IMG/VR virus record: IMGVR_UViG_3300034683_000092
Coordinates: 32,584 to 96,583 of that record
Length of the DNA stretch: 64,000 bases
From: a virus
Strand: one strand, 5' to 3'
The first letter of the stretch is position 1, and each line of letters starts with the position of its first letter. Shown here piece by piece: positions 14,912-24,071 of the stretch. The notes under the pieces were generated by a model. It was given only the letters and a program-made list of their open reading frames with translations. It ran no database searches and was not told the DNA's origin. A program made the position numbers and the translations under genes.

Positions 14912-15802
14912 ATGAATTTTGATTCTTTTTATTCAATTTATCAAAAATATGATGATATAAACGCAAAAGAATATCCAACACCGTCTAATCCTAAGTCGAG
15001 GATACAACACAGATGGTGTTTTTCTCCGCTATTTAACAAAAGCACTGAATCTTTTAAATCCATACAAGTTATTAAGATATGGATGACCAGTAAAGATGTT
15101 AGTAATGAAATCGAAGGTAAAGATATTGACCCGTATAATAGGATGATGTCAAATGAATCTCATAAAGTTTTAATAACAGAAGAAGAACTTCGTAACTACA
15201 TCAATAATGTATCTCTTCTTTTTAATGTTGAAATGACATTAGATACTATCGATGATTCAGAATGGGTGGTATCTATCTTTACGAAAGGATCTACTGACGT
15301 TGGAAGGATAAAAACTGTTATGACTTTTGTTCGATACGCTTATGAGTTCTCTTTTAATTACATATTGGCATTATTATATGGATCTATTGACTTAGGTATA
15401 TTTAGTAAGGATGAAGACTTCTTTGCTTTATTGTTCTTCTTTAGTGTTACAGAGCATAGCAATGACAATCATGCTTTTGCTGGAAATAGTGACATATTGT
15501 ATACTAATCCTGCAATATTAAATGAACATATTGGAGAAACACGAATAGAAGGCGTATATTACTTTATGGAAAGAGCATCTATAAATGTTGATCGTTTATT
15601 ATATGAAGATGGTGAGAAAGTTTGTGAAACAGTAAGAACCGAGTCTTATTTTAGAAATCTATTAAGCGAAGGAAGTGCTGAGTATTGTAGTGATCCAAAT
15701 AAAAATGGAGTTTATGATTATTTAAAAAACAACAAAGATCAAATAATTAAATTATATGAAAGTTATAAAAAACAGATTAAAGATCAGGTCCAAAAACCAT
15801 AG
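14912..15802 (+). CDS. Unknown protein of the amidoligase module; paralogue of 16555..17376
   Basis: CFSxxF, ITEEEL, KTVMTFVRYAYE..N.IL and HAF motifs shared with the 16555 ORF. Confidence 0.7.
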   Translation: MNFDSFYSIYQKYDDINAKEYPTPSNPKSRIQHRWCFSPLFNKSTESFKSIQVIKIWMTSKDVSNEIEGKDIDPYNRMMSNESHKVLITEEELRNYINNVSLLFNVEMTLDTIDDSEWVVSIFTKGSTDVGRIKTVMTFVRYAYEFSFNYILALLYGSIDLGIFSKDEDFFALLFFFSVTEHSNDNHAFAGNSDILYTNPAILNEHIGETRIEGVYYFMERASINVDRLLYEDGEKVCETVRTESYFRNLLSEGSAEYCSDPNKNGVYDYLKNNKDQIIKLYESYKKQIKDQVQKP

Positions 15803-16562
15803 TGCAAAACTATTGGATCGTTTAGAGTGTGACAAATTATCAGTGTTAAGACTTGGAAGCAAAACGCCAAATGACGTAGTCTTCGCAAATAGCAAACGCT
15901 ACAAAAAAGGAGAAATCCCTTTTGAGATAAACACTGTTGAAGCATGCGTTAACTCTTCTAACAAGAGATTAATGAAGCAATGCTTTAACGAATTAGACGT
16001 AGCAACAGCGTTATGGTGCGATTTAAGCGAGTTTATCGAAGGAGATGCTGAATTCTCTTATCCAATAGTAGTAAAGGGCATATACGGCTATAAAAACAAA
16101 GATAACTATTTTATCAAAGGCAAAGAAGAACTTGATGAATGGTTGAAAGTTGATAGAAAAATTGAAAACTATATAGTAGAGAAGTTCTACACCTACTCAA
16201 AAGAGTATAGAGTTCATGTAGCTAAGGTTGGAGATGAATATAATGCTTTTTATAGTTTGCGTAAAATGCTTGTAAATGACATTCCTGATGAAGATAGGTG
16301 GTTTAGAAATGACGCAAATTGCGTGTGGATTTTAGAGGACAACGAGCAATTTGATGCTCCTATAAATTGGGATAGCATCAAAGAGCAAGCTTGTAAGGCC
16401 ATCGAGTCTGTTGGATTGTCAATGGGTTGTGTAGATGTAAAAACGCAATCACGCAAAGGTGAATGCGGATGCATTATATTAGAAACAAACTCTGCGCCAA
16501 GCCTTTCTGAGATAACTGCTGAAAAATATAACGAACAATTAAAATTGATGTTAAATGTATAG
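15756..16562 (+). CDS. ATP-grasp ligase (RimK-like fold)
   Basis: SSNK, YPIVVK, YIVEK, EYRVHV, GCVDV, ILETNSAP. Confidence 0.88.
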   Translation: MKVIKNRLKIRSKNHSAKLLDRLECDKLSVLRLGSKTPNDVVFANSKRYKKGEIPFEINTVEACVNSSNKRLMKQCFNELDVATALWCDLSEFIEGDAEFSYPIVVKGIYGYKNKDNYFIKGKEELDEWLKVDRKIENYIVEKFYTYSKEYRVHVAKVGDEYNAFYSLRKMLVNDIPDEDRWFRNDANCVWILEDNEQFDAPINWDSIKEQACKAIESVGLSMGCVDVKTQSRKGECGCIILETNSAPSLSEITAEKYNEQLKLMLNV

Positions 16563-17376
16563 AGGGTATCAGTGTATATATAGTATAATAGAGACTACTG
16601 AAAAGGATTTTGATGTAGCTAATAGTGATAGCTATAAAAAGTTTATAGCATCAACAGTCCCATCTGGAACTATCCATGTGTGTTTTTCAAATATATTTGG
16701 AAGAAAATGCTTTGATTACTTATTAATTAAAGCTTTCGCAAACCCTCAATACGCAATTCAGTCTGGAGGGTCAAATGTATGCGTATTAACAAAAGACGAA
16801 ATTATGTTTTTTGTTGACCAGATAAAAGAGCTTTACAAAGTGAACATTGAAATATTTTTTCACGAAAAGCATCAAACAAGAAATAAATTGTCTAAATATC
16901 CATTCTTTGTTATATCATATAAATCATCTGACAATTTATTCATAGATAAAGTAGTACTAACGCTGCTGAGATATATGTTTGAAGAGCCATATAATCTTAT
17001 TTTGAAAACTGTATTTTTAATGGCTGATGATGATTCTTTTAAAGATAACGATTTTTGGTTTAACTTCGAGACGGCTATAGGATGTTGTTATGGTGGAAGT
17101 GGGCACGGTTTTGTTTCTACATATGCAATACAACCTTTAAAATTGGATTTTAAAGAGAACAAAGAGTGTAGAGTAAATTCTATGGTTAAATATTGCGGAG
17201 AATCTGTAAGCAATAACAAATCGATCGATTTCGCATCTATACCAGACGAGATATTGTATGAAGATAAAGATTATTCTTGCGGTTTGAAGTTCTTGAATTT
17301 ATATGAAGAGAAAGTTAGGCCTTTATTATTAATTGTAAACGATATTAAAAAACAAAACTTAAATGAAAAAGTGTAA
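16555..17376 (+). CDS. Unknown protein of the amidoligase module; paralogue of 14912..15802
   Basis: CFSNIF, LTKDEI, KVVLTLLRYMFEEPYNLIL, HGF. Confidence 0.7.
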   Translation: MYRGYQCIYSIIETTEKDFDVANSDSYKKFIASTVPSGTIHVCFSNIFGRKCFDYLLIKAFANPQYAIQSGGSNVCVLTKDEIMFFVDQIKELYKVNIEIFFHEKHQTRNKLSKYPFFVISYKSSDNLFIDKVVLTLLRYMFEEPYNLILKTVFLMADDDSFKDNDFWFNFETAIGCCYGGSGHGFVSTYAIQPLKLDFKENKECRVNSMVKYCGESVSNNKSIDFASIPDEILYEDKDYSCGLKFLNLYEEKVRPLLLIVNDIKKQNLNEKV

Positions 17377-17998
17377 TATTTTTGTTGTTGGAGGTAGCAC
17401 TGGCTATGTTTCATGGATTGAGAATGTTAATTTAGTAGACTCTCCTTTAAAGGCCGACATAGTATTCTTTACTGGAGGCGAGGACGTTAGTCCGTCACTA
17501 TATGGAGAAGAATCTCATAGAACAACATTCGCAAATAAGAAAAGAGATATTGTTGAAATGGAAGTTTTTAACCTTGTAAAAGACAATCCTGATATTCTTA
17601 AGCTTGGAGTTTGCAGGGGATCTCAATTCTTAACAGTAATGAATGGAGCAAAACTAGTTCAGAATGTCAATAACCATGCTATTTGGGGTGGTCACGACAT
17701 AGATGTAGAGCATCCTGAATTCGTTGGTACTATAAAGATAACGTCTACGCATCACCAAATGCTAAGACCCTTTGTGTTGCCAGATGAAGAGTACGATTTA
17801 ATAGCTGTGTCTTCCACTAAAAGAAGTGATGTCTATCAAGGCGGAAATGGCGATATAGAAATGCCTTGTGAACCAGAAATTGTGTATTATAAAAAGACAA
17901 ACAGTCTTTGTATTCAAGGGCATCCTGAAATGCTTCCTTTTGAATGCGAGACAAACGTTGTTTTGAGAAAGATTTTAAATTATTATATCAACAAGTAA
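17363..17998 (+). CDS. Class I glutamine amidotransferase (peptidase C26 / gamma-glutamyl hydrolase-like)
   Basis: FTGGEDV, nucleophile elbow GVCRGSQ, STHHQ, QGHPE. Confidence 0.9.
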   Translation: MKKCNIFVVGGSTGYVSWIENVNLVDSPLKADIVFFTGGEDVSPSLYGEESHRTTFANKKRDIVEMEVFNLVKDNPDILKLGVCRGSQFLTVMNGAKLVQNVNNHAIWGGHDIDVEHPEFVGTIKITSTHHQMLRPFVLPDEEYDLIAVSSTKRSDVYQGGNGDIEMPCEPEIVYYKKTNSLCIQGHPEMLPFECETNVVLRKILNYYINK

Positions 17999-18011
17999 TC
18001 AATTATCAATT

Positions 18012-18833
18012 ATGGACAAGTTTATTAAAGTTCAAATGTTGGGTTCTGACCCAGAGTTTTTAATCAAAAATCAAAAAAGTAACAAATATATATCTTCTAT
18101 CGGGATTATCCCTGGTACAAAAGAGGAACCTCATAAAATTGAGGAGCTGGGCAAGGGTTACGCTATCGAGATAGATAACGTACTGGGGGAATTTAATATC
18201 CCACCTGCAAGTACAAAGGAGGAATTTGTTGCAAACATGAATAAGATGAAGTTATTTATTGATAAGTGGCTTAAATCTAAAGATGAAAATCTAATTGCAG
18301 TTCATTTAGCTTCTGCCAGATATGATGAAGATCAATTGCAATCAGAAGAAGCTAAGCTATTTGGTTGTGACCCAGATTTCTGTGCTTGGACGAGAAGTCA
18401 AAATGAAAAGCCAAAAGCGAAAGACACAAGACTTCGTTCAACAGGATGTCATATCCATGTATCTTTTGAAGATAAAGACATTGACAAGTGCGAAGTACTT
18501 GTTAAAGCAATGGATTTGTTTTTAGGAGTTCCATCCATACTAATGGATAAAGACAAAGATAGAAGACAACTCTATGGAAAAGCTGGATGTTTTAGAATTC
18601 AACAATATGGTGTTGAATATAGGACTTTATCTGGGTTCTTCCTTGGCAGCGATGAGCTTATTGGATGGATGTTTGACAACACAATGGCAGCTATCGATTG
18701 GATAAATAGTGATTTGTCTGCTGCTAGAATTGCATTAGAAGAAAACAGAGAGGAAATAATCTCTGCAATCAACAATGGAGATGAAGAAAAAGCATCTTCA
18801 TTAGTTCAGAAGTTCGGAATTAAATTAGTGTAA
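18012..18833 (+). CDS. phiEco32-like COOH-NH2 ligase type 2
   Basis: LGSDPEF, DNVLGEFNIPP, FGCDPD, RSTGCHIH, RRQLYGKAG.FR, YGVEYRTLS. Confidence 0.88.
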   Translation: MDKFIKVQMLGSDPEFLIKNQKSNKYISSIGIIPGTKEEPHKIEELGKGYAIEIDNVLGEFNIPPASTKEEFVANMNKMKLFIDKWLKSKDENLIAVHLASARYDEDQLQSEEAKLFGCDPDFCAWTRSQNEKPKAKDTRLRSTGCHIHVSFEDKDIDKCEVLVKAMDLFLGVPSILMDKDKDRRQLYGKAGCFRIQQYGVEYRTLSGFFLGSDELIGWMFDNTMAAIDWINSDLSAARIALEENREEIISAINNGDEEKASSLVQKFGIKLV

Positions 18834-18840
18834 AACATTA

Positions 18841-18864
18841 CGGCCTGTTGAAATATACAGGCCG
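18841..18864 (+). promoter_or_regulatory. GC-rich intergenic hairpin without U-tail (possible mRNA stability or processing element)
   Basis: CGGCCTGT-N8-ACAGGCCG. Confidence 0.45.
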
Positions 18865-18878
18865 CAAAACTTAAAAAT

Positions 18879-20444
18879 ATGATTATAACAAACTTTATTA
18901 TTTTAGCCGTATTGATTCATTCTATTATGGCATTCACACTTAAAGACAAAGTAAAATCAAACGCTTATTGTGGGCTGTTTGGATTCGTAGGAGGCGGTGG
19001 ATTCGATCTGTTCAGAATGTGTATTCTTGGCATTTATAATGACACAAGAGGCGGAGACTCAACAGGCGTATCCTTGGATGGCGTTCATTATGGATCTAAA
19101 GGTAATAAAAACAAGCTATTTAGAGCTTTTATCGCTGAAGAGAATCCATTTGACGAGTTAGCAATGAGACCCAAGGTAGCATTAGGACATTGTAGAAAAG
19201 CTTCTGTTGGTGGAATTGGGGAAGCGCAAGCACAGCCAGTGTATATAAAAGAAGGTGACAAAGTGAAATTTGTTATGATTCATAATGGTACTTTAGTTAA
19301 TTATAAAGAATTAGCTAAAAAGTACGAAGTAGAATATGAAGCCTCAGAAACGGATTCTCAGATATTTTGTAAAATAGTTTATAAAGCTGGATATAAAGTT
19401 CTTGGTGAATATATAGGCGCTGGAGCATTTGTGTTCCATGATCTTAGAATTAACAAGGTGTTTGCATTTAAAGGTAATAGTAAGATGTATAACAACTCTG
19501 CTAATACAGAGGATGAAAGGCCTTTTTATATTTTAAAATCTGGTGGTGGATATTATTTCTCATCAATAAAAGAGTCTTTAAGTGCTATTAGAAAAAACAA
19601 TGATGGAGATGTAATGACTATTAAAGTTAATACACTTACTGATTTGACTGGTGGTATTTTAGGTTATGCAAACACATACGATAGGGCTAATTTGCATCAG
19701 CTAGAATCCAAATATGGAATGTTTGACGACTACGGATGCAATACAGCTTTAATAAACAGGGGTGGAGGATACAATCCAAACAAAGAGGTTATTCTTACTT
19801 CAAAGTTAGAGCTAGAGGGAAATCATAAAAACACAGATTCATATATTACTCATGACGAAGATGGGTTTTATAATATTGGTGGAAAGCCTTTCACTGGAGC
19901 TATTTTGACAAGTACTGCTGGTTGGATTTATGACAGGAATGAAGGGTTTGGCAAATTGAATGGGCCTAAGTATAATGGAACTGTATTTGAGTCGTATTTC
20001 ATGCGTGGAATAAAAATGAATTCAAAAGTTGATTTTTACGCATGCAATTACTTTATTCGGAATTTTGTTGATAAATACGATTCGGATTTAAAGGATTTAT
20101 CAGAGGAAGAAAAGCAAGATCTTTTTGGGACTATCTTAGCGTTCTCAAATACGTCAGTAAAAATAGGCGGATTGTTTAAAACAGTTAAAAAAGGTGATTT
20201 AATAAATGCTTCTACTGTCTATCTAGTTCCACTATTCCAGTCTGGGCTGGAAAAGCATTATTATATTCTTTCTGGTAAAGTATACTCTTATAAAAAGGCT
20301 TCGATTTCTCAAAAAGATCTAATGAATACACCAAAGCATTCAATAGATGGAACGGCTGAATTAAATAAGATGTTAGAAAACAATAGTTCAGATAAAGAGC
20401 TTGAAGAATTTTATGTTAATTATATAAAACAAAATATAATATAA
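18879..20444 (+). CDS. Class II (Ntn) glutamine amidotransferase with a 30-aa leader
   Basis: CGLFG, RGGDSTG, GHCRKAS, AQP, HNGT, TDS. Confidence 0.88.
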   Translation: MIITNFIILAVLIHSIMAFTLKDKVKSNAYCGLFGFVGGGGFDLFRMCILGIYNDTRGGDSTGVSLDGVHYGSKGNKNKLFRAFIAEENPFDELAMRPKVALGHCRKASVGGIGEAQAQPVYIKEGDKVKFVMIHNGTLVNYKELAKKYEVEYEASETDSQIFCKIVYKAGYKVLGEYIGAGAFVFHDLRINKVFAFKGNSKMYNNSANTEDERPFYILKSGGGYYFSSIKESLSAIRKNNDGDVMTIKVNTLTDLTGGILGYANTYDRANLHQLESKYGMFDDYGCNTALINRGGGYNPNKEVILTSKLELEGNHKNTDSYITHDEDGFYNIGGKPFTGAILTSTAGWIYDRNEGFGKLNGPKYNGTVFESYFMRGIKMNSKVDFYACNYFIRNFVDKYDSDLKDLSEEEKQDLFGTILAFSNTSVKIGGLFKTVKKGDLINASTVYLVPLFQSGLEKHYYILSGKVYSYKKASISQKDLMNTPKHSIDGTAELNKMLENNSSDKELEEFYVNYIKQNII

Positions 20445-21856
20445 TGTTAGTAAAAACAATATCTAATAATGTAGTCGATAGAGCTGACTGCATCCAAATC
20501 AAAGATAAATTTTATCAAAAAGAAGTAGACTGTGTTAGACTCGAAGGAAAATGGTATTGGGTTAAAAGTCGAATGATTTATTTCAATGAAAGACTTGATA
20601 AATACAAGAAGGTGACTAACGATACTACTGACTTTTTTACTAAAAAAGATGGCGTTATTAAGATTGTAAGAGATGAATTGGAGCCTGGGGAGTCTGTTGA
20701 AGTTTCAATTAAAGGTTTTGGTGATGGAGTTGTATCTTCCAGGGACGAAGCCTTAAGGATGGATCTTGTTTATGATAATAGATGCGGTCGGTATGTAGAC
20801 CCAACCTATTTTCGTGAAAGAGGACTAACTGTAAACTCCAAAGATGCTATAAAAACTGGTAAGAAGCTTTATGCAACTCTTCCAGAGAAATATAATTCAT
20901 CTGACCTAATGGATAAGTTCAATGTGCCACAACGAGTAGCAAAATATAATCCAACGTCTTTTAATGTTCAAGAAAAACTTGGACTTGAATATTCATTTGG
21001 ATTTGAGTTTGAAACCAGTGGTGGAAACATCCCATTAGAAGAGCTTTATAGAACTGGGTTAATGCCTTTAAGAGATGGGTCTATTTCTGGACACGAGTAC
21101 ACTACTATTCCATTAATGGGGGATTTTGGTTTGTCTGTTTTAGAAAATCAGATAAATTTGCTAAATAAGTATACCATTATAGATAAAGAATGCTCAATGC
21201 ATATCCATCTAGGTGGTTATCCAATTAGTGAAAAAGCCATTATGTCTGCTTATCTTATGGCGGTAAATCTAGAACATGAGATCGGAACGCTATTCCCTAG
21301 ATATATATTTGAAACCCATAACTACAAGGCAAAAGGCAAAGACTATTGCAAGCAGCTTTATGGTGCATCAAGTATAAATGACATCTATAAGATACTATCT
21401 GCTGGATATTATAAAACATTTGGTGGAGATTTCACTCTTAATCATCCAAGCGATTCAGGCGATCAGCAGAAATGGAATATAGAGTATCGTTATTACTGGT
21501 TTAATCTTATTAATATGATGTTTAAAAATCATGGAAAGACGATTGAATTTAGAATCCATACTCCAACTCATAATGCAGATAAGATTTATGCATGGCTGCT
21601 AATAACATCTGCTATATTGAAATATGCAGAGGAGAATATCCCAGAAGTGTTAGACAGAGATAAGGCTTATGACTTATCTTATATTATAAAGAAGTCTGGG
21701 TATCCTTTGGAATTGCAGACTATTTTATTGGAATATATAAATTGGAGAGAAAGCTTTTGCAAAGAGATGGATCGTGTTGGTGATTACGCTGGAATAAGTG
21801 AGATCATTAACGATTCTCAAGAGTTTGGGCTTCTTAAATATTTGAAATCATTATAA
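20444..21856 (+). CDS. Amidoligase_2-like (glutamine-synthetase-fold) enzyme
   Basis: FGFEFE, RDGSI..HEYTT, CSMHIH, YYWFN, TIEFR.H. Confidence 0.85.
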   Translation: MLVKTISNNVVDRADCIQIKDKFYQKEVDCVRLEGKWYWVKSRMIYFNERLDKYKKVTNDTTDFFTKKDGVIKIVRDELEPGESVEVSIKGFGDGVVSSRDEALRMDLVYDNRCGRYVDPTYFRERGLTVNSKDAIKTGKKLYATLPEKYNSSDLMDKFNVPQRVAKYNPTSFNVQEKLGLEYSFGFEFETSGGNIPLEELYRTGLMPLRDGSISGHEYTTIPLMGDFGLSVLENQINLLNKYTIIDKECSMHIHLGGYPISEKAIMSAYLMAVNLEHEIGTLFPRYIFETHNYKAKGKDYCKQLYGASSINDIYKILSAGYYKTFGGDFTLNHPSDSGDQQKWNIEYRYYWFNLINMMFKNHGKTIEFRIHTPTHNADKIYAWLLITSAILKYAEENIPEVLDRDKAYDLSYIIKKSGYPLELQTILLEYINWRESFCKEMDRVGDYAGISEIINDSQEFGLLKYLKSL

Positions 21857-21857
21857 A

Positions 21858-22559
21858 ATGGCTGCACCAGTAAATGCGCAGAAGCATGTTTACGACGGTG
21901 TTAAATTCGATAGCGGTCTAGAGGTTTTTTGCTATAAACAGCTTAAAGCCTCTGGCATCGCTTTTGAATATAATACTATGTCATTCGTGCTAGCGGACTC
22001 TTTTAGACCAGATAACGTTTTGATATATAAATACAATAAAGAGCATGGGTTTATATGTAGAAATCAAGCGGAACGAGGTCAGATCTATACTCCAGACTTT
22101 GTGATAAAGGATGGAAATAGAATTTTTATAATAGAATGTAAAGGCAGAGCTAATGAAAGATACCCTTTAATGAGAAAAGCGTTCTTTAGAATGATGGACT
22201 TAGATAACAATAACAGGTATTTCTTTTTTGAGCCAGCCAATAACAAACAAGTAATAAGCACAATCGAGACGATTATGAGTAAATTAAATCTAATTAAAAA
22301 CGGTCTTCTTTTAGTAAAAGACAATTTGTCTAAAAAGGATTTTCTTCTTTTAAATAATCTTTTAGATGATCGAAAGTTTGTTGACTTTATAGAGTTAACA
22401 AGAGCGATGCTCAGAAAAGAAAAAGGCAAACCAAGAGAAGAAAGAGATAAGATGTTTATTTTTAACCTTGAAAACACTATTTTTGAGACTACAGAGTATT
22501 ATAAACAAACACTTCCTCAAGACGAAGAAGATATATTAGAAAGCTATGATGAACTTTAA
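21858..22559 (+). CDS. PD-(D/E)xK endonuclease (T7 endonuclease I/DUF1064-like) with C-terminal extension
   Basis: FDSGLE, YTPDF, IECKG. Confidence 0.8.
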   Translation: MAAPVNAQKHVYDGVKFDSGLEVFCYKQLKASGIAFEYNTMSFVLADSFRPDNVLIYKYNKEHGFICRNQAERGQIYTPDFVIKDGNRIFIIECKGRANERYPLMRKAFFRMMDLDNNNRYFFFEPANNKQVISTIETIMSKLNLIKNGLLLVKDNLSKKDFLLLNNLLDDRKFVDFIELTRAMLRKEKGKPREERDKMFIFNLENTIFETTEYYKQTLPQDEEDILESYDEL

Positions 22560-23579: not shown

Positions 23580-24071
23580 ATGATAATACTACTAATAATT
23601 ACAATTTGCTTATGGGTTTGGTTATGCTTTTCAGTTTTGCCAATTAAGAAAAAACAAATCAATTTAATATCTTCAAACAAAAAAGAAGACGATCTGTTAT
23701 TACCGATCATAGATATTGAGATAGCTGGAATAAAAACAAAAGCTATAATTGACACAGGTTCTTCTTTGAATATAATCAATAAGCATTTTGCGATGAAGAA
23801 TAATTTATTTGTTGATTATGCAAAAGAAAAAGAAGTAGACAGCTTTTTAACAGCGCAAGGAGAGACATCTACAGATGGTGTTTTGGCTTGTCAAACTGTT
23901 ATAAACAATGATTTTATGAGAGATCTTGAATTCGTTGTTTATGACATGCAAAGAGCTATGGACGCTATCAGCGAGTCAATAAACAGCGAGGTGTCTATAA
24001 TACTTGGTGTTGAAGCTATTAAGAAATTTAATATAACTATTAAAATGAATGAAGGAGTTATTATTTTATAA
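23580..24071 (+). CDS. Membrane-anchored retropepsin-like aspartyl protease
   Basis: N-terminal TM; IIDTGSS catalytic motif; IILG. Confidence 0.82.
   Translation: MIILLIITICLWVWLCFSVLPIKKKQINLISSNKKEDDLLLPIIDIEIAGIKTKAIIDTGSSLNIINKHFAMKNNLFVDYAKEKEVDSFLTAQGETSTDGVLACQTVINNDFMRDLEFVVYDMQRAMDAISESINSEVSIILGVEAIKKFNITIKMNEGVIIL

What the first reader, a model, noticed from the sequence alone, without database searches (positions are those of the whole stretch)
14912..21856. Seven-gene phage amide/peptide-ligase module with unknown product
Seen: a contiguous, largely overlapping run of unknown paralogue A, ATP-grasp ligase, unknown paralogue B, class I GATase, COOH-NH2 ligase type 2, class II GATase and an Amidoligase_2-like enzyme, all with intact-looking catalytic motifs. 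It sits between primase and the nucleases. Established: phiEco32-like phages carry related ATP-grasp/COOH-NH2-ligase/GATase clusters, and to my knowledge their product is unresolved. Inference: three amide-forming enzymes plus two amidotransferases or hydrolases form a small biosynthetic or write/erase tagging pathway. It could glutamylate or amidate proteins, the cell envelope or DNA. No gamma-glutamylcyclotransferase gene was recognised here. This is the strongest candidate for an uncharacterised system in the window.
Basis: partly seen in the sequence, partly recalled or inferred. Interest (0 to 1): 0.75.

Follow-up and report, generated by a model that had tools for sequence, protein, structure and literature searches.

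The report
Known phage amide-ligase cassette, crAss-like copy
This crAss-like gut phage carries an intact copy of the "phiEco32-type" set of enzymes that make and cut amide bonds, known from hundreds of phages since 2009 with its product still unidentified; here it also includes two fast-evolving helper proteins of a family with no known relatives.

Summary
Seven co-directional, tightly packed ORFs (14912-21856) encode unknown A, an ATP-grasp ligase, unknown B, a class I GATase (Peptidase_C26 type), a COOH-NH2 ligase (PF14395), an Ntn class II GATase and an Amidoligase_2 enzyme. All family-invariant catalytic residues are kept. The genes co-occur strongly: among 85 distinct phage loci anchored on the COOH-NH2 ligase, 84 have the Ntn GATase, 77 the ATP-grasp, 77 Amidoligase_2 and 73 the class I GATase.

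This is the phiEco32/LUZ24/RIO-1-type cassette (Iyer 2009; Hardies 2013), which the literature calls a "peptidoglycan modification cassette". I found no experimental test of it. This scan has already flagged the cassette many times on other DNA, including crAss-like copies.

- A and B belong to one orphan family, present in 40 of 85 loci, under purifying selection and with no fold match.
- That family is found fused to a class I GATase domain in two phages.
- The Ntn GATase carries a conserved hydrophobic 26-30-residue propeptide in 8 of 50 homologues that keep the catalytic Cys.
- The ligase family is essentially restricted to phages.
- The genome has no known DNA-base-modification entry enzymes.

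Best reading: a cytoplasmic pathway that builds and trims gamma-glutamyl or amide bonds. Its substrate is unknown.

The parts
14912..15802 (+). Unknown A (296 aa), the degenerate paralogue of the orphan 'AB' family
   Evidence: ORF, with no hit in any library. It is a member of the AB family. It keeps C36, F37, R141 and E145 but has lost the conserved N-x-C motif (H84, V86). dN/dS is 0.11-0.18. The AF2 model has pLDDT 68.6, and no fold match was found.
15756..16562 (+). ATP-grasp ligase (268 aa), RimK/MptN-like
   Evidence: PHROG 2599 at 2.8e-21 and NCBIfam MptN over residues 25-254. The invariant residues K70, E150, R152, H154, K170, D227, E243 and N245 are kept. dN/dS is 0.04-0.08.
16555..17376 (+). 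Unknown B (273 aa), the AB-family member that keeps the full motif set; it overlaps the GATase I gene by 14 nt
   Evidence: C43, F44, N74, C76, R139, E143 and P145 are all kept. dN/dS is 0.11. AB lies next to GATase I 44 times in 85 loci. GATase I-AB fusion proteins occur in L043 and L058.
17363..17998 (+). Class I GATase / Peptidase_C26-type gamma-glutamyl hydrolase (211 aa)
   Evidence: PF07722 at 2.7e-13 and PHROG 7218 at 2.4e-36. There are weak NCBIfam hits to gamma-glutamyl-CDP-amidate hydrolase and PuuD. The C84/H187/E189 triad is intact. dN/dS is 0.035.
18012..18833 (+). COOH-NH2 ligase type 2 (PF14395, GCS/GS-like; 273 aa)
   Evidence: It is 51% identical to the cr108_1 protein and 38% identical to PaP3 orf48. 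The residues found to be invariant in 80 homologues are all kept. dN/dS is 0.011.
18838..18867 (.). Stable 11-bp hairpin (6 G-C pairs) in the only sizeable intergenic gap, between the COOH-NH2 ligase and GATase II genes
   Evidence: No T-run follows it on the + strand, so it is not a typical terminator for this operon. Its role is untested.
18879..18968 (+). Hydrophobic 30-residue leader (propeptide) in front of the catalytic Cys of GATase II
   Evidence: No start codon precedes Cys31; the preceding codon is TAT. The AF2 model shows a helix over residues 2-22. Mean Kyte-Doolittle hydropathy of the first 20 residues is 2.15. A similar 26-30-residue leader (hydrophobic helix, a His in 7 of the 8 at about position 11-14, a Lys-rich stretch (KPK in 5 of the 8), then Cys) is present in 8 of the 50 homologues that keep the Cys; the other 42 start Met-Cys or another start codon directly before the Cys.
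18969..20444 (+). Ntn (class II) glutamine amidotransferase: a PurF/GlmS-like glutaminase domain (aa 31-275) plus a fast-evolving C-terminal region of unknown fold (aa 276-521)
   Evidence: The PDB profile search gives PurF at 1.2e-26 and GlmS at 5e-19 over the N-terminal domain only. Foldseek matches GlmS, PurF, AsnB and EgtC over about 250-300 columns only. Invariant residues are listed. The C-terminal region is modelled with low confidence.
20444..21856 (+). Amidoligase_2 (PF12224, GS-like; 470 aa); its start overlaps the GATase II stop by 1 nt
   Evidence: The invariant residues G186, E188, E190, D211, S213, E218, H253 and H255 are kept, as is the near-invariant R370. No solved relative was found by sequence. 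It lies next to GATase II 78 times in 85 loci.

Best explanation
This is a complete, functional copy of the phage-specific phiEco32/LUZ24/RIO-1-type amidoligase cassette. It sits in the replication-gene block of a crAss-like phage.

Most likely it is a cytoplasmic multi-step pathway that builds and then trims gamma-glutamyl or amide bonds on a small carboxylate-rich substrate, either a peptide-like metabolite or a precursor. DNA is an unlikely substrate.

Inferred division of labour:
1. The GS/GCS-like ligases (COOH-NH2 ligase and Amidoligase_2) activate carboxylates with ATP.
2. The PurF/GlmS-type Ntn glutaminase is almost always the direct neighbour of Amidoligase_2. It probably feeds that enzyme ammonia, converting a carboxylate to a carboxamide.
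3. The RimK/MptN-like ATP-grasp enzyme adds an amino-acid unit, probably glutamate-type.
4. The C26-type class I GATase is the neighbour of the COOH-NH2 ligase and of protein B. It either hydrolyses a gamma-glutamyl amide, as PuuD does, or supplies ammonia.
5. A and B are lineage-specific partner subunits of that class I GATase, with B the likely active one.

What is shown: the gene content, the intact catalytic residues, the co-occurrence and adjacency, purifying selection, the restriction to phages, and the fusion. What is inferred: the pairing logic, the gamma-glutamyl theme and the class of substrate.
For: - Family assignments and intact catalytic residues.
- Co-occurrence in 85 distinct loci: GATase II 84, ATP-grasp 77, Amidoligase_2 77, GATase I 73. 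All 509 assigned genes lie on the same strand as the ligase.
- Adjacency counts: Amidoligase_2-GATase II 78, COOH-NH2 ligase-GATase I 54, AB-GATase I 44.
- The same core is found in cr108_1, PaP3, ECBP2, GAP52, 7-11, BUCT695 and Slicky01.
- GATase I-AB fusion proteins with an intact GICRG/HPE triad occur in L043 and L058.
- dN/dS is 0.01-0.18 for the five genes covered by the related contigs, A through the COOH-NH2 ligase.
- The gamma-glutamyl theme has several supports: a GCS-like ligase, a C26 hydrolase family with weak PuuD and gamma-glutamyl-CDP-amidate hydrolase hits, and a gamma-glutamyl cyclotransferase gene in 31 of 85 related cassettes.
- The ligase family was found in only 27 of 185,579 species genomes, 24 of them MAG or uncultured-bin contigs, several of phage size, so it is a phage invention rather than a borrowed host gene.
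- Published descriptions agree on the operon and that its role is only hypothesised (PMC4819975, PMC5498523, PMC10580990, PMC3890496).
Against: - No substrate, product or phenotype has been measured, here or in any paper I could find.
- Adjacency does not prove ammonia channelling. Both GATases could act purely as hydrolases, as EgtC and PuuD do.
- The C-terminal half of GATase II and the N-terminal 185 residues of Amidoligase_2 have no recognisable acceptor domain.
- A and B have no fold match, so a 'partner subunit' role rests on adjacency and two fusion proteins only.
- The fast evolution of A, B and the GATase II C-terminus would also fit recognition of a variable macromolecular target.
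Confidence: 0.5

Rival explanations
1. Peptidoglycan-precursor editing, which is the hypothesis in the literature. The three ligases and two amidotransferases rebuild or amidate the stem peptide of UDP-MurNAc-peptide or lipid II. This changes the cell wall so that other phages cannot superinfect, or it affects lysis.
For: - This role was proposed by Iyer 2009 (as cited in PMC10580990) and by Hardies 2013 and Duhaime 2017 (PMC5498523, 'peptidoglycan modification cassette').
- From my own knowledge of the families: both known stem-peptide amidations use a carboxylate-activating enzyme plus a GATase. MurT/GatD uses class I, and AsnB1/LtsA uses class II.
- The ATP-grasp gene gives weak D-Ala-D-Ala ligase hits.
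- A conserved membrane-like hydrophobic leader on GATase II in 8 of 50 homologues could place the proenzyme at the inner membrane, where lipid II is made.
Against: - None of the enzymes is a Mur ligase, and none gives a significant hit to a peptidoglycan enzyme. The best Ddl E-value is 9e-6, far below the family cut-off.
- Forty-two of the 50 GATase II homologues lack the leader.
- No muropeptide data exist.
- The gamma-glutamyl cyclotransferase and C26 hydrolase have no obvious role in building a stem peptide.
Confidence: 0.2
2. Write/erase peptide tagging of a protein. The ligases add glutamate-type residues or amides to carboxylates of a host or phage protein, as RimK, tubulin glutamylases or PafA do. 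The GATase-type hydrolases remove them. A and B act as adaptors or as the substrates.
For: - The ATP-grasp enzyme is closest to RimK/MptN/LysX-type ligases.
- A, B and the GATase II C-terminus evolve several-fold faster than the enzymes (dN/dS 0.11-0.18 against 0.01-0.08). This is as expected for parts that contact a variable protein.
- An earlier scan note (e1-3433680) reports a related cassette interleaved with proteins that share a common acidic tail.
Against: - From my own knowledge: known protein-tagging systems use one ligase and one hydrolase, not three ligases plus two amidotransferases plus a cyclotransferase.
- A and B have no acidic C-terminal tail.
- No target is indicated by any conserved neighbour.
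Confidence: 0.15
3. DNA or nucleotide hypermodification. The cassette attaches or amidates an amino-acid-like group on a base or nucleotide to protect phage DNA from restriction.
For: The cassette lies directly beside the primase or primase-helicase gene in crAss-like, PaP3-like and phiEco32-like phages. It sits among replication and nuclease genes.
Against: - The 96.6-kb genome (about 95% complete) has no ThyA-type hydroxymethylase, no TGT/DpdA and no UDG, only ThyX.
- None of the enzyme families present is known to act on DNA.
- An earlier scan follow-up (e1-3261384) also argued against DNA modification on indirect grounds.
Confidence: 0.07

Closest known systems
phiEco32 / LUZ24-PaP3 / RIO-1 / 7-11-type phage amidoligase cassette (Iyer et al. 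2009; Hardies et al. 2013; 'peptidoglycan modification cassette' of PMC5498523)
   Same: It has the same five enzyme families: PF14395 ligase, PF12224 ligase, ATP-grasp, Ntn GATase and class I GATase. They form one co-directional block among early and replication genes next to the primase.
   Different: - The gene order differs. Here it is A-grasp-B-GAT1-CNL-GAT2-AL2, whereas PaP3 and phiEco32 have U1-U2-CNL-X200-AL2-GAT2...grasp-GGCT.
- There is no gamma-glutamyl cyclotransferase.
- There is no homologue of the roughly 200-aa protein found between the two ligases in PaP3-type cassettes.
- The two unknowns here belong to a different family, or one diverged beyond recognition, compared with PaP3 orf49/50 and ECBP2 86/87 (hhalign probability 1% or less with the five-member profiles; 9% or less with single sequences).
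crAss-like phage cr108_1 (MT774385) genes gp_22632-gp_22626
   Same: This is the closest annotated relative. It carries the same seven families between the primase and the nuclease genes. Identities are ligase 51%, GATase I 47%, ATP-grasp 44% and Amidoligase_2 34%.
   Different: In cr108_1 the order is grasp-AB-AB, whereas here it is A-grasp-B. In cr108_1 GATase II starts Met-Cys with no leader. In cr108_1 a UDG gene follows the cassette; this genome has none.
PuuA/PuuD gamma-glutamyl-putrescine pathway and EgtA/EgtC of ergothioneine synthesis (analogy only)
   Same: The logic is the same: a GS/GCS-like ligase makes a gamma-glutamyl amide, and a GATase-fold hydrolase later removes the glutamate. 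PuuD is a C26 enzyme and EgtC is an Ntn enzyme. There is a weak NCBIfam hit to PuuD, and EgtC appears among the Foldseek matches of the Ntn domain.
   Different: There is no significant sequence membership in either family. The cassette has three ligases and no oxidising or sulfur-transfer enzymes. The substrate is unknown.
MurT/GatD and AsnB1/LtsA peptidoglycan amidation systems (analogy only, from my own knowledge)
   Same: A carboxylate-activating enzyme is paired with a class I or class II glutamine amidotransferase. This matches the two conserved ligase-GATase gene pairs seen here.
   Different: The activating enzymes here are GS/GCS-like. They are not Mur-ligase-like or asparagine-synthetase-like. 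No hit to these families was obtained.

Membership tests
phiEco32-type phage amidoligase cassette | COOH-NH2 ligase type 2 (PF14395) | tested here: met
   41.9 bits against a cut-off of 25. PHROG 3815 at 5e-74. The residues found to be invariant in 80 homologues are kept.
phiEco32-type phage amidoligase cassette | Amidoligase_2 (PF12224) next to an Ntn class II GATase | tested here: met
   27.9 bits against a cut-off of 22. The genes overlap by 1 nt. They are adjacent 78 times in 85 loci.
phiEco32-type phage amidoligase cassette | ATP-grasp ligase in the same block | tested here: met
   The Pfam score of 24.4 bits is under the cut-off of 27. However, PHROG 2599 scores 2.8e-21 and the ATP-grasp K/E/K/D-E-N residues are kept.
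phiEco32-type phage amidoligase cassette | Class I GATase / C26-type hydrolase | tested here: met
   PF07722 at 50.6 bits against a cut-off of 20.5. The Cys-His-Glu triad is intact.
phiEco32-type phage amidoligase cassette | Gamma-glutamyl cyclotransferase (frequent, not universal) | tested here: not met
   PF06094 gives no match in the whole 96.6-kb genome. It is present in 31 of 85 related loci, so it is accessory and its absence does not exclude membership.
phiEco32-type phage amidoligase cassette | Co-directional cluster among early/replication genes of a phage | tested here: met
   It lies between the primase and the nucleases. The same position is seen in 45 crAss-like loci.
phiEco32-type phage amidoligase cassette | Defined product or activity | not testable with these tools
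   No experimental characterisation was found in the held literature.
Two-domain class II amidotransferases (PurF, GlmS, AsnB type) | N-terminal Ntn glutaminase domain with a catalytic N-terminal Cys | tested here: met
   PurF at 1.2e-26 over aa 28-275. Foldseek gives GlmS at 5e-11. Cys31, R57, N136, G137 and D159 are conserved. The Cys lies behind a 30-residue leader that must be removed.
Two-domain class II amidotransferases (PurF, GlmS, AsnB type) | Recognisable acceptor domain (PRTase, SIS or PP-loop synthetase) | tested here: inconclusive
   No sequence or fold match extends beyond about residue 300.
Orphan 'AB' family (defined here) | About 250-340 aa; N-terminal Cys-Phe, N-x-C, and an R-x3-E-x-P helix motif; gene next to GATase I inside the cassette | tested here: met
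   B keeps every motif. A keeps C36, F37, R141 and E145 but not N-x-C. HMM E-values are 2.5e-65 for A and 1.5e-54 for B, although both are in the model. BFVD fold hits go only to the two cr108_1 and two ctelJ1 crAss-like proteins.

The most novel reading that the evidence does not exclude
A and B define a new acceptor ('synthase') subunit family for the class I amidotransferase. The Ntn amidotransferase is made as a membrane-tethered zymogen. Together the cassette amidates or re-tailors a lipid-linked or cytoplasmic envelope precursor, or makes a new gamma-glutamyl amide metabolite, and this changes the infected cell's susceptibility to other phages. That would be a new phage-only biochemical pathway with a new enzyme fold.
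Probability: 0.12. Interest if true: 0.7.

Novelty: new member of a known kind. Interest (0 to 1): 0.4.

Why it matters
The cassette is one of the most widespread phage-specific multi-enzyme modules without a known product. It occurs in 319 of 50,697 sequenced phage records, at least 371 IMG/VR contigs and many crAss-like gut phages. Identifying its product would explain a conserved part of how short-tailed phages take over cells.

This copy adds little that makes the problem easier to test, because the phage is uncultured. E. coli and Pseudomonas carriers are the practical models.

The useful additions are three concrete handles for biochemistry:
- The definition of the AB family.
- Its fusion to a class I GATase domain.
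- The conserved hydrophobic propeptide on the Ntn amidotransferase.

Tried and rejected
- **Distant homologues of A.** phmmer against 1.8 billion representatives gave only one weak hit beyond close relatives (P0084, 2.6e-4). Word-based searches for A and B returned only proteins at 79-94% identity. The ESM Atlas gave nothing.
- **Fold of A.** Foldseek against the PDB gave a best E-value of 0.07. VIA-align against 48,161 chains gave a best Z of 4.0. The low-ranking arginine-kinase, McsB and plant GCL rows suggested a degenerate GS-like fold. However, hhalign of the AB profile against the COOH-NH2 ligase, Amidoligase_2, ATP-grasp, GATase I, GATase II and X200 profiles all gave a probability below 1%, so I dropped the idea.
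- **An apparent AB-GATase I homology.** This appeared in iterated searches and turned out to be profile contamination through two fusion proteins. It disappeared after domain trimming.
- **Homology of A/B to the two unknown ORFs upstream of the ligase in PaP3, ECBP2, GAP52, 7-11 and BUCT695.** hhalign probabilities were about 1%. Only weak BFVD hits appeared, such as GAP52 K4F9T7 at E 0.07, plus a shared N-terminal Cys-aromatic motif. The result is inconclusive.
- **Longer fused forms of AB.** None was found, which is weak evidence.
- **Solved relatives by sequence.** The COOH-NH2 ligase and Amidoligase_2 have none.
- **Nucleotide similarity.** blastn of the cassette against the phage collection found nothing.
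- **Known defence-system families.** There were no PADLOC hits.
- **Tools and papers not available.** The metagenome scan returned only three short contigs. The Iyer 2009 paper itself (PMC3268129) is not held, so its content is cited second-hand.


Full report
**What is there**

The window belongs to a 96.6-kb virus record that is about 95% complete. Its best annotated relative is the crAss-like phage cr108_1 (Steigviridae).

Seven + strand ORFs fill 14912-21856 with overlaps or gaps of 45 nt or less. Library scans identify five of them:
- An ATP-grasp ligase, RimK/MptN-like.
- A class I GATase of the Peptidase_C26 type.
- A PF14395 COOH-NH2 ligase.
- An Ntn class II GATase.
- A PF12224 Amidoligase_2.

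A and B hit nothing. A primase lies upstream. A DUF1064 resolvase-like nuclease and an exonuclease lie downstream. The residues that are invariant across 50-80 homologues of each enzyme are all kept in this copy.

**Do the genes belong together?**

The COOH-NH2 ligase has 319 tblastn matches among 50,697 phage records and 371 in IMG/VR. I fetched 80 IMG/VR loci plus cr108_1, PaP3 and ECBP2, called ORFs and built iterated profiles.

In 85 distinct loci the counts were: ligase 85, GATase II 84, ATP-grasp 77, Amidoligase_2 77, GATase I 73, AB family 40 and gamma-glutamyl cyclotransferase 31. All genes lie on the ligase's strand.

The most stable gene neighbours are Amidoligase_2-GATase II (78), ligase-GATase I (54) and AB-GATase I (44). 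Some of the gaps in these counts come from truncated contigs. The 80 loci are the best of the 371, so the sample leans towards relatives of this window.

In 185,579 species genomes the ligase was found only 27 times, 24 of them in MAG or uncultured-bin contigs, several of phage size. It rings in 0 of 14 control genomes. The module is phage-specific.

**It is a known cassette**

- Pfam names PF14395 after phiEco32.
- PMC3890496 lists the same genes in LUZ24-like phages.
- PMC5498523 calls it a "peptidoglycan modification cassette" conserved in RIO-1, phiEco32, 7-11, PA11, tf, LUZ24, PaP3 and CW02.
- PMC10580990 attributes the cell-wall and superinfection idea to Iyer et al. 2009.

I found no experimental determination of product or phenotype. 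The cr108_1 GenBank record already annotates the enzymes. This scan has flagged the cassette in at least 188 genomes, including crAss-like copies.

1. *A and B belong to one orphan family.*
   - They are 25% identical over 108 aa.
   - Profiles recover 60 members in 41 of the 86 fetched loci (40 of the 85 distinct loci), one or two per locus. All lie in cassettes ordered grasp-AB-(AB)-GATase I-ligase-GATase II-Amidoligase_2.
   - The family has an invariant Cys-Phe near the N-terminus, a conserved N-x-C, and an R-x3-E-x-P helix motif.
   - B keeps all of these. A has lost N-x-C and the Pro.
   - Both are under purifying selection (dN/dS 0.11-0.18) but evolve several-fold faster than the enzymes (0.01-0.08).
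   - The AF2 model of A (pLDDT 68.6, pTM 0.71) has no PDB match. In BFVD it matches only the two cr108_1 and two ctelJ1 crAss-like proteins.
2. *Fusion to a GATase I domain.* In two phages (L043, L058) an AB domain is fused behind a second, catalytically intact GATase I domain. With the 44 adjacencies, this ties the family functionally to the class I GATase.
3. *PaP3-, phiEco32- and 7-11-type cassettes differ.* They carry two other unknown proteins of about 300 aa in front of the ligase, and a protein of about 200 aa behind it. Homology of these to AB could not be shown.
4. *GATase II has a conserved leader.*
   - In this copy a 30-residue leader precedes the catalytic Cys, with no start codon directly before it.
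   - Eight of the 50 homologues that keep the Cys, from different cassette layouts, share a similar hydrophobic helix. Seven of the eight have a His in it, all have a Lys-rich stretch after it (KPK in five) and all end at the Cys. The other 42 have a start codon directly before the Cys, Met-Cys in the alignment consensus.
   - Hydropathy is in the range of membrane helices, and AF2 models a helix.
   - An Ntn enzyme needs a free N-terminal Cys, so this is a propeptide.
5. *The acceptor side of GATase II is unrecognisable.* Only the glutaminase half matches PurF, GlmS, AsnB or EgtC.

**How it most likely works**

Shown:
- Three ATP-dependent carboxylate-amine ligase families and two glutamine-amide hydrolase families, all apparently active.
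- They are inherited as a unit by unrelated short-tailed phages.

Inferred:
- Two ligase-GATase gene pairs suggest either split glutamine-dependent amidotransferases or "ligate glutamate, then cut it off" steps of the PuuA/PuuD and EgtA/EgtC kind.
- The frequent cyclotransferase and the C26 family point to gamma-glutamyl intermediates.
- The ATP-grasp enzyme adds a further residue.

A set of three ligases, two amidotransferases and often a cyclotransferase resembles small-molecule or precursor pathways more than protein-tagging systems. I give this reading 0.5.

The published peptidoglycan-precursor idea is a special case that I rate at 0.2. It gains a little from the membrane-like leader but has no direct support.

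Protein tagging is rated 0.15. It fits the fast-evolving A, B and GATase II C-terminus.

DNA or nucleotide modification is rated 0.07. It rests only on the position next to the primase. The genome lacks ThyA-type, TGT/DpdA and UDG genes and has only ThyX.

**Verdict**

This is a real, intact and correctly read gene set. It is another member of a cassette that has been known, but biochemically untested, for over fifteen years. The AB family, its GATase I fusion and the Ntn propeptide are modest new leads.

Noticed in passing
window 18879-18971; L023, L029, L039, L047, L051, L075, L077 GATase II genes: A conserved hydrophobic 26-30-residue leader (His inside the helix in 7 of the 8, then a Lys-rich stretch, KPK in 5 of the 8) precedes the catalytic Cys of the Ntn amidotransferase in 8 of the 50 representative homologues that keep the Cys. 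It implies a propeptide and possibly a membrane-tethered zymogen.
   Followed up: partly
window 18838-18867: An 11-bp, GC-rich hairpin sits in the 45-nt gap between the COOH-NH2 ligase and GATase II genes. It is the only notable non-coding element inside the cassette. No T-run follows it on the coding strand.
   Followed up: no
L043:5800-7335 and L058:5843-7351: These are 502-511-aa proteins. Each fuses an intact class I GATase domain to an AB-family domain, and a separate GATase I gene lies immediately downstream.
   Followed up: partly
window 21856-22559 versus L001:12753-13391 and 28 other crAss-like loci: Twenty-nine related loci have a uracil-DNA glycosylase gene directly after the cassette. 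This phage has none there or anywhere else in its 96.6-kb genome (PF03167 search). It encodes ThyX rather than ThyA.
   Followed up: partly
window 23580-24071: A 163-aa ORF between the exonuclease and DNA polymerase genes matches retropepsin-like aspartyl protease families (PF13975 at 5.9e-7, above the cut-off). This is unusual in a phage replication block.
   Followed up: no
L040:10504-13107, L049, L053, L062; L051, L056, L057, L072, L085: Some cassettes carry an Ntn GATase of about 850 aa with a large extra region of unknown nature, and they lack GATase I. Others carry a second Ntn GATase gene after Amidoligase_2.
   Followed up: no
L002:7794-8369, L003:8799-9425 and 19 IMG/VR loci: A conserved orphan protein of about 200 aa sits between the two GS-like ligases in PaP3-, phiEco32- and small-podovirus-type cassettes. 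hhalign links PaP3 orf47 and ECBP2_84 to it at 86-90% probability. It is absent from crAss-type cassettes, which have the AB family instead.
   Followed up: partly
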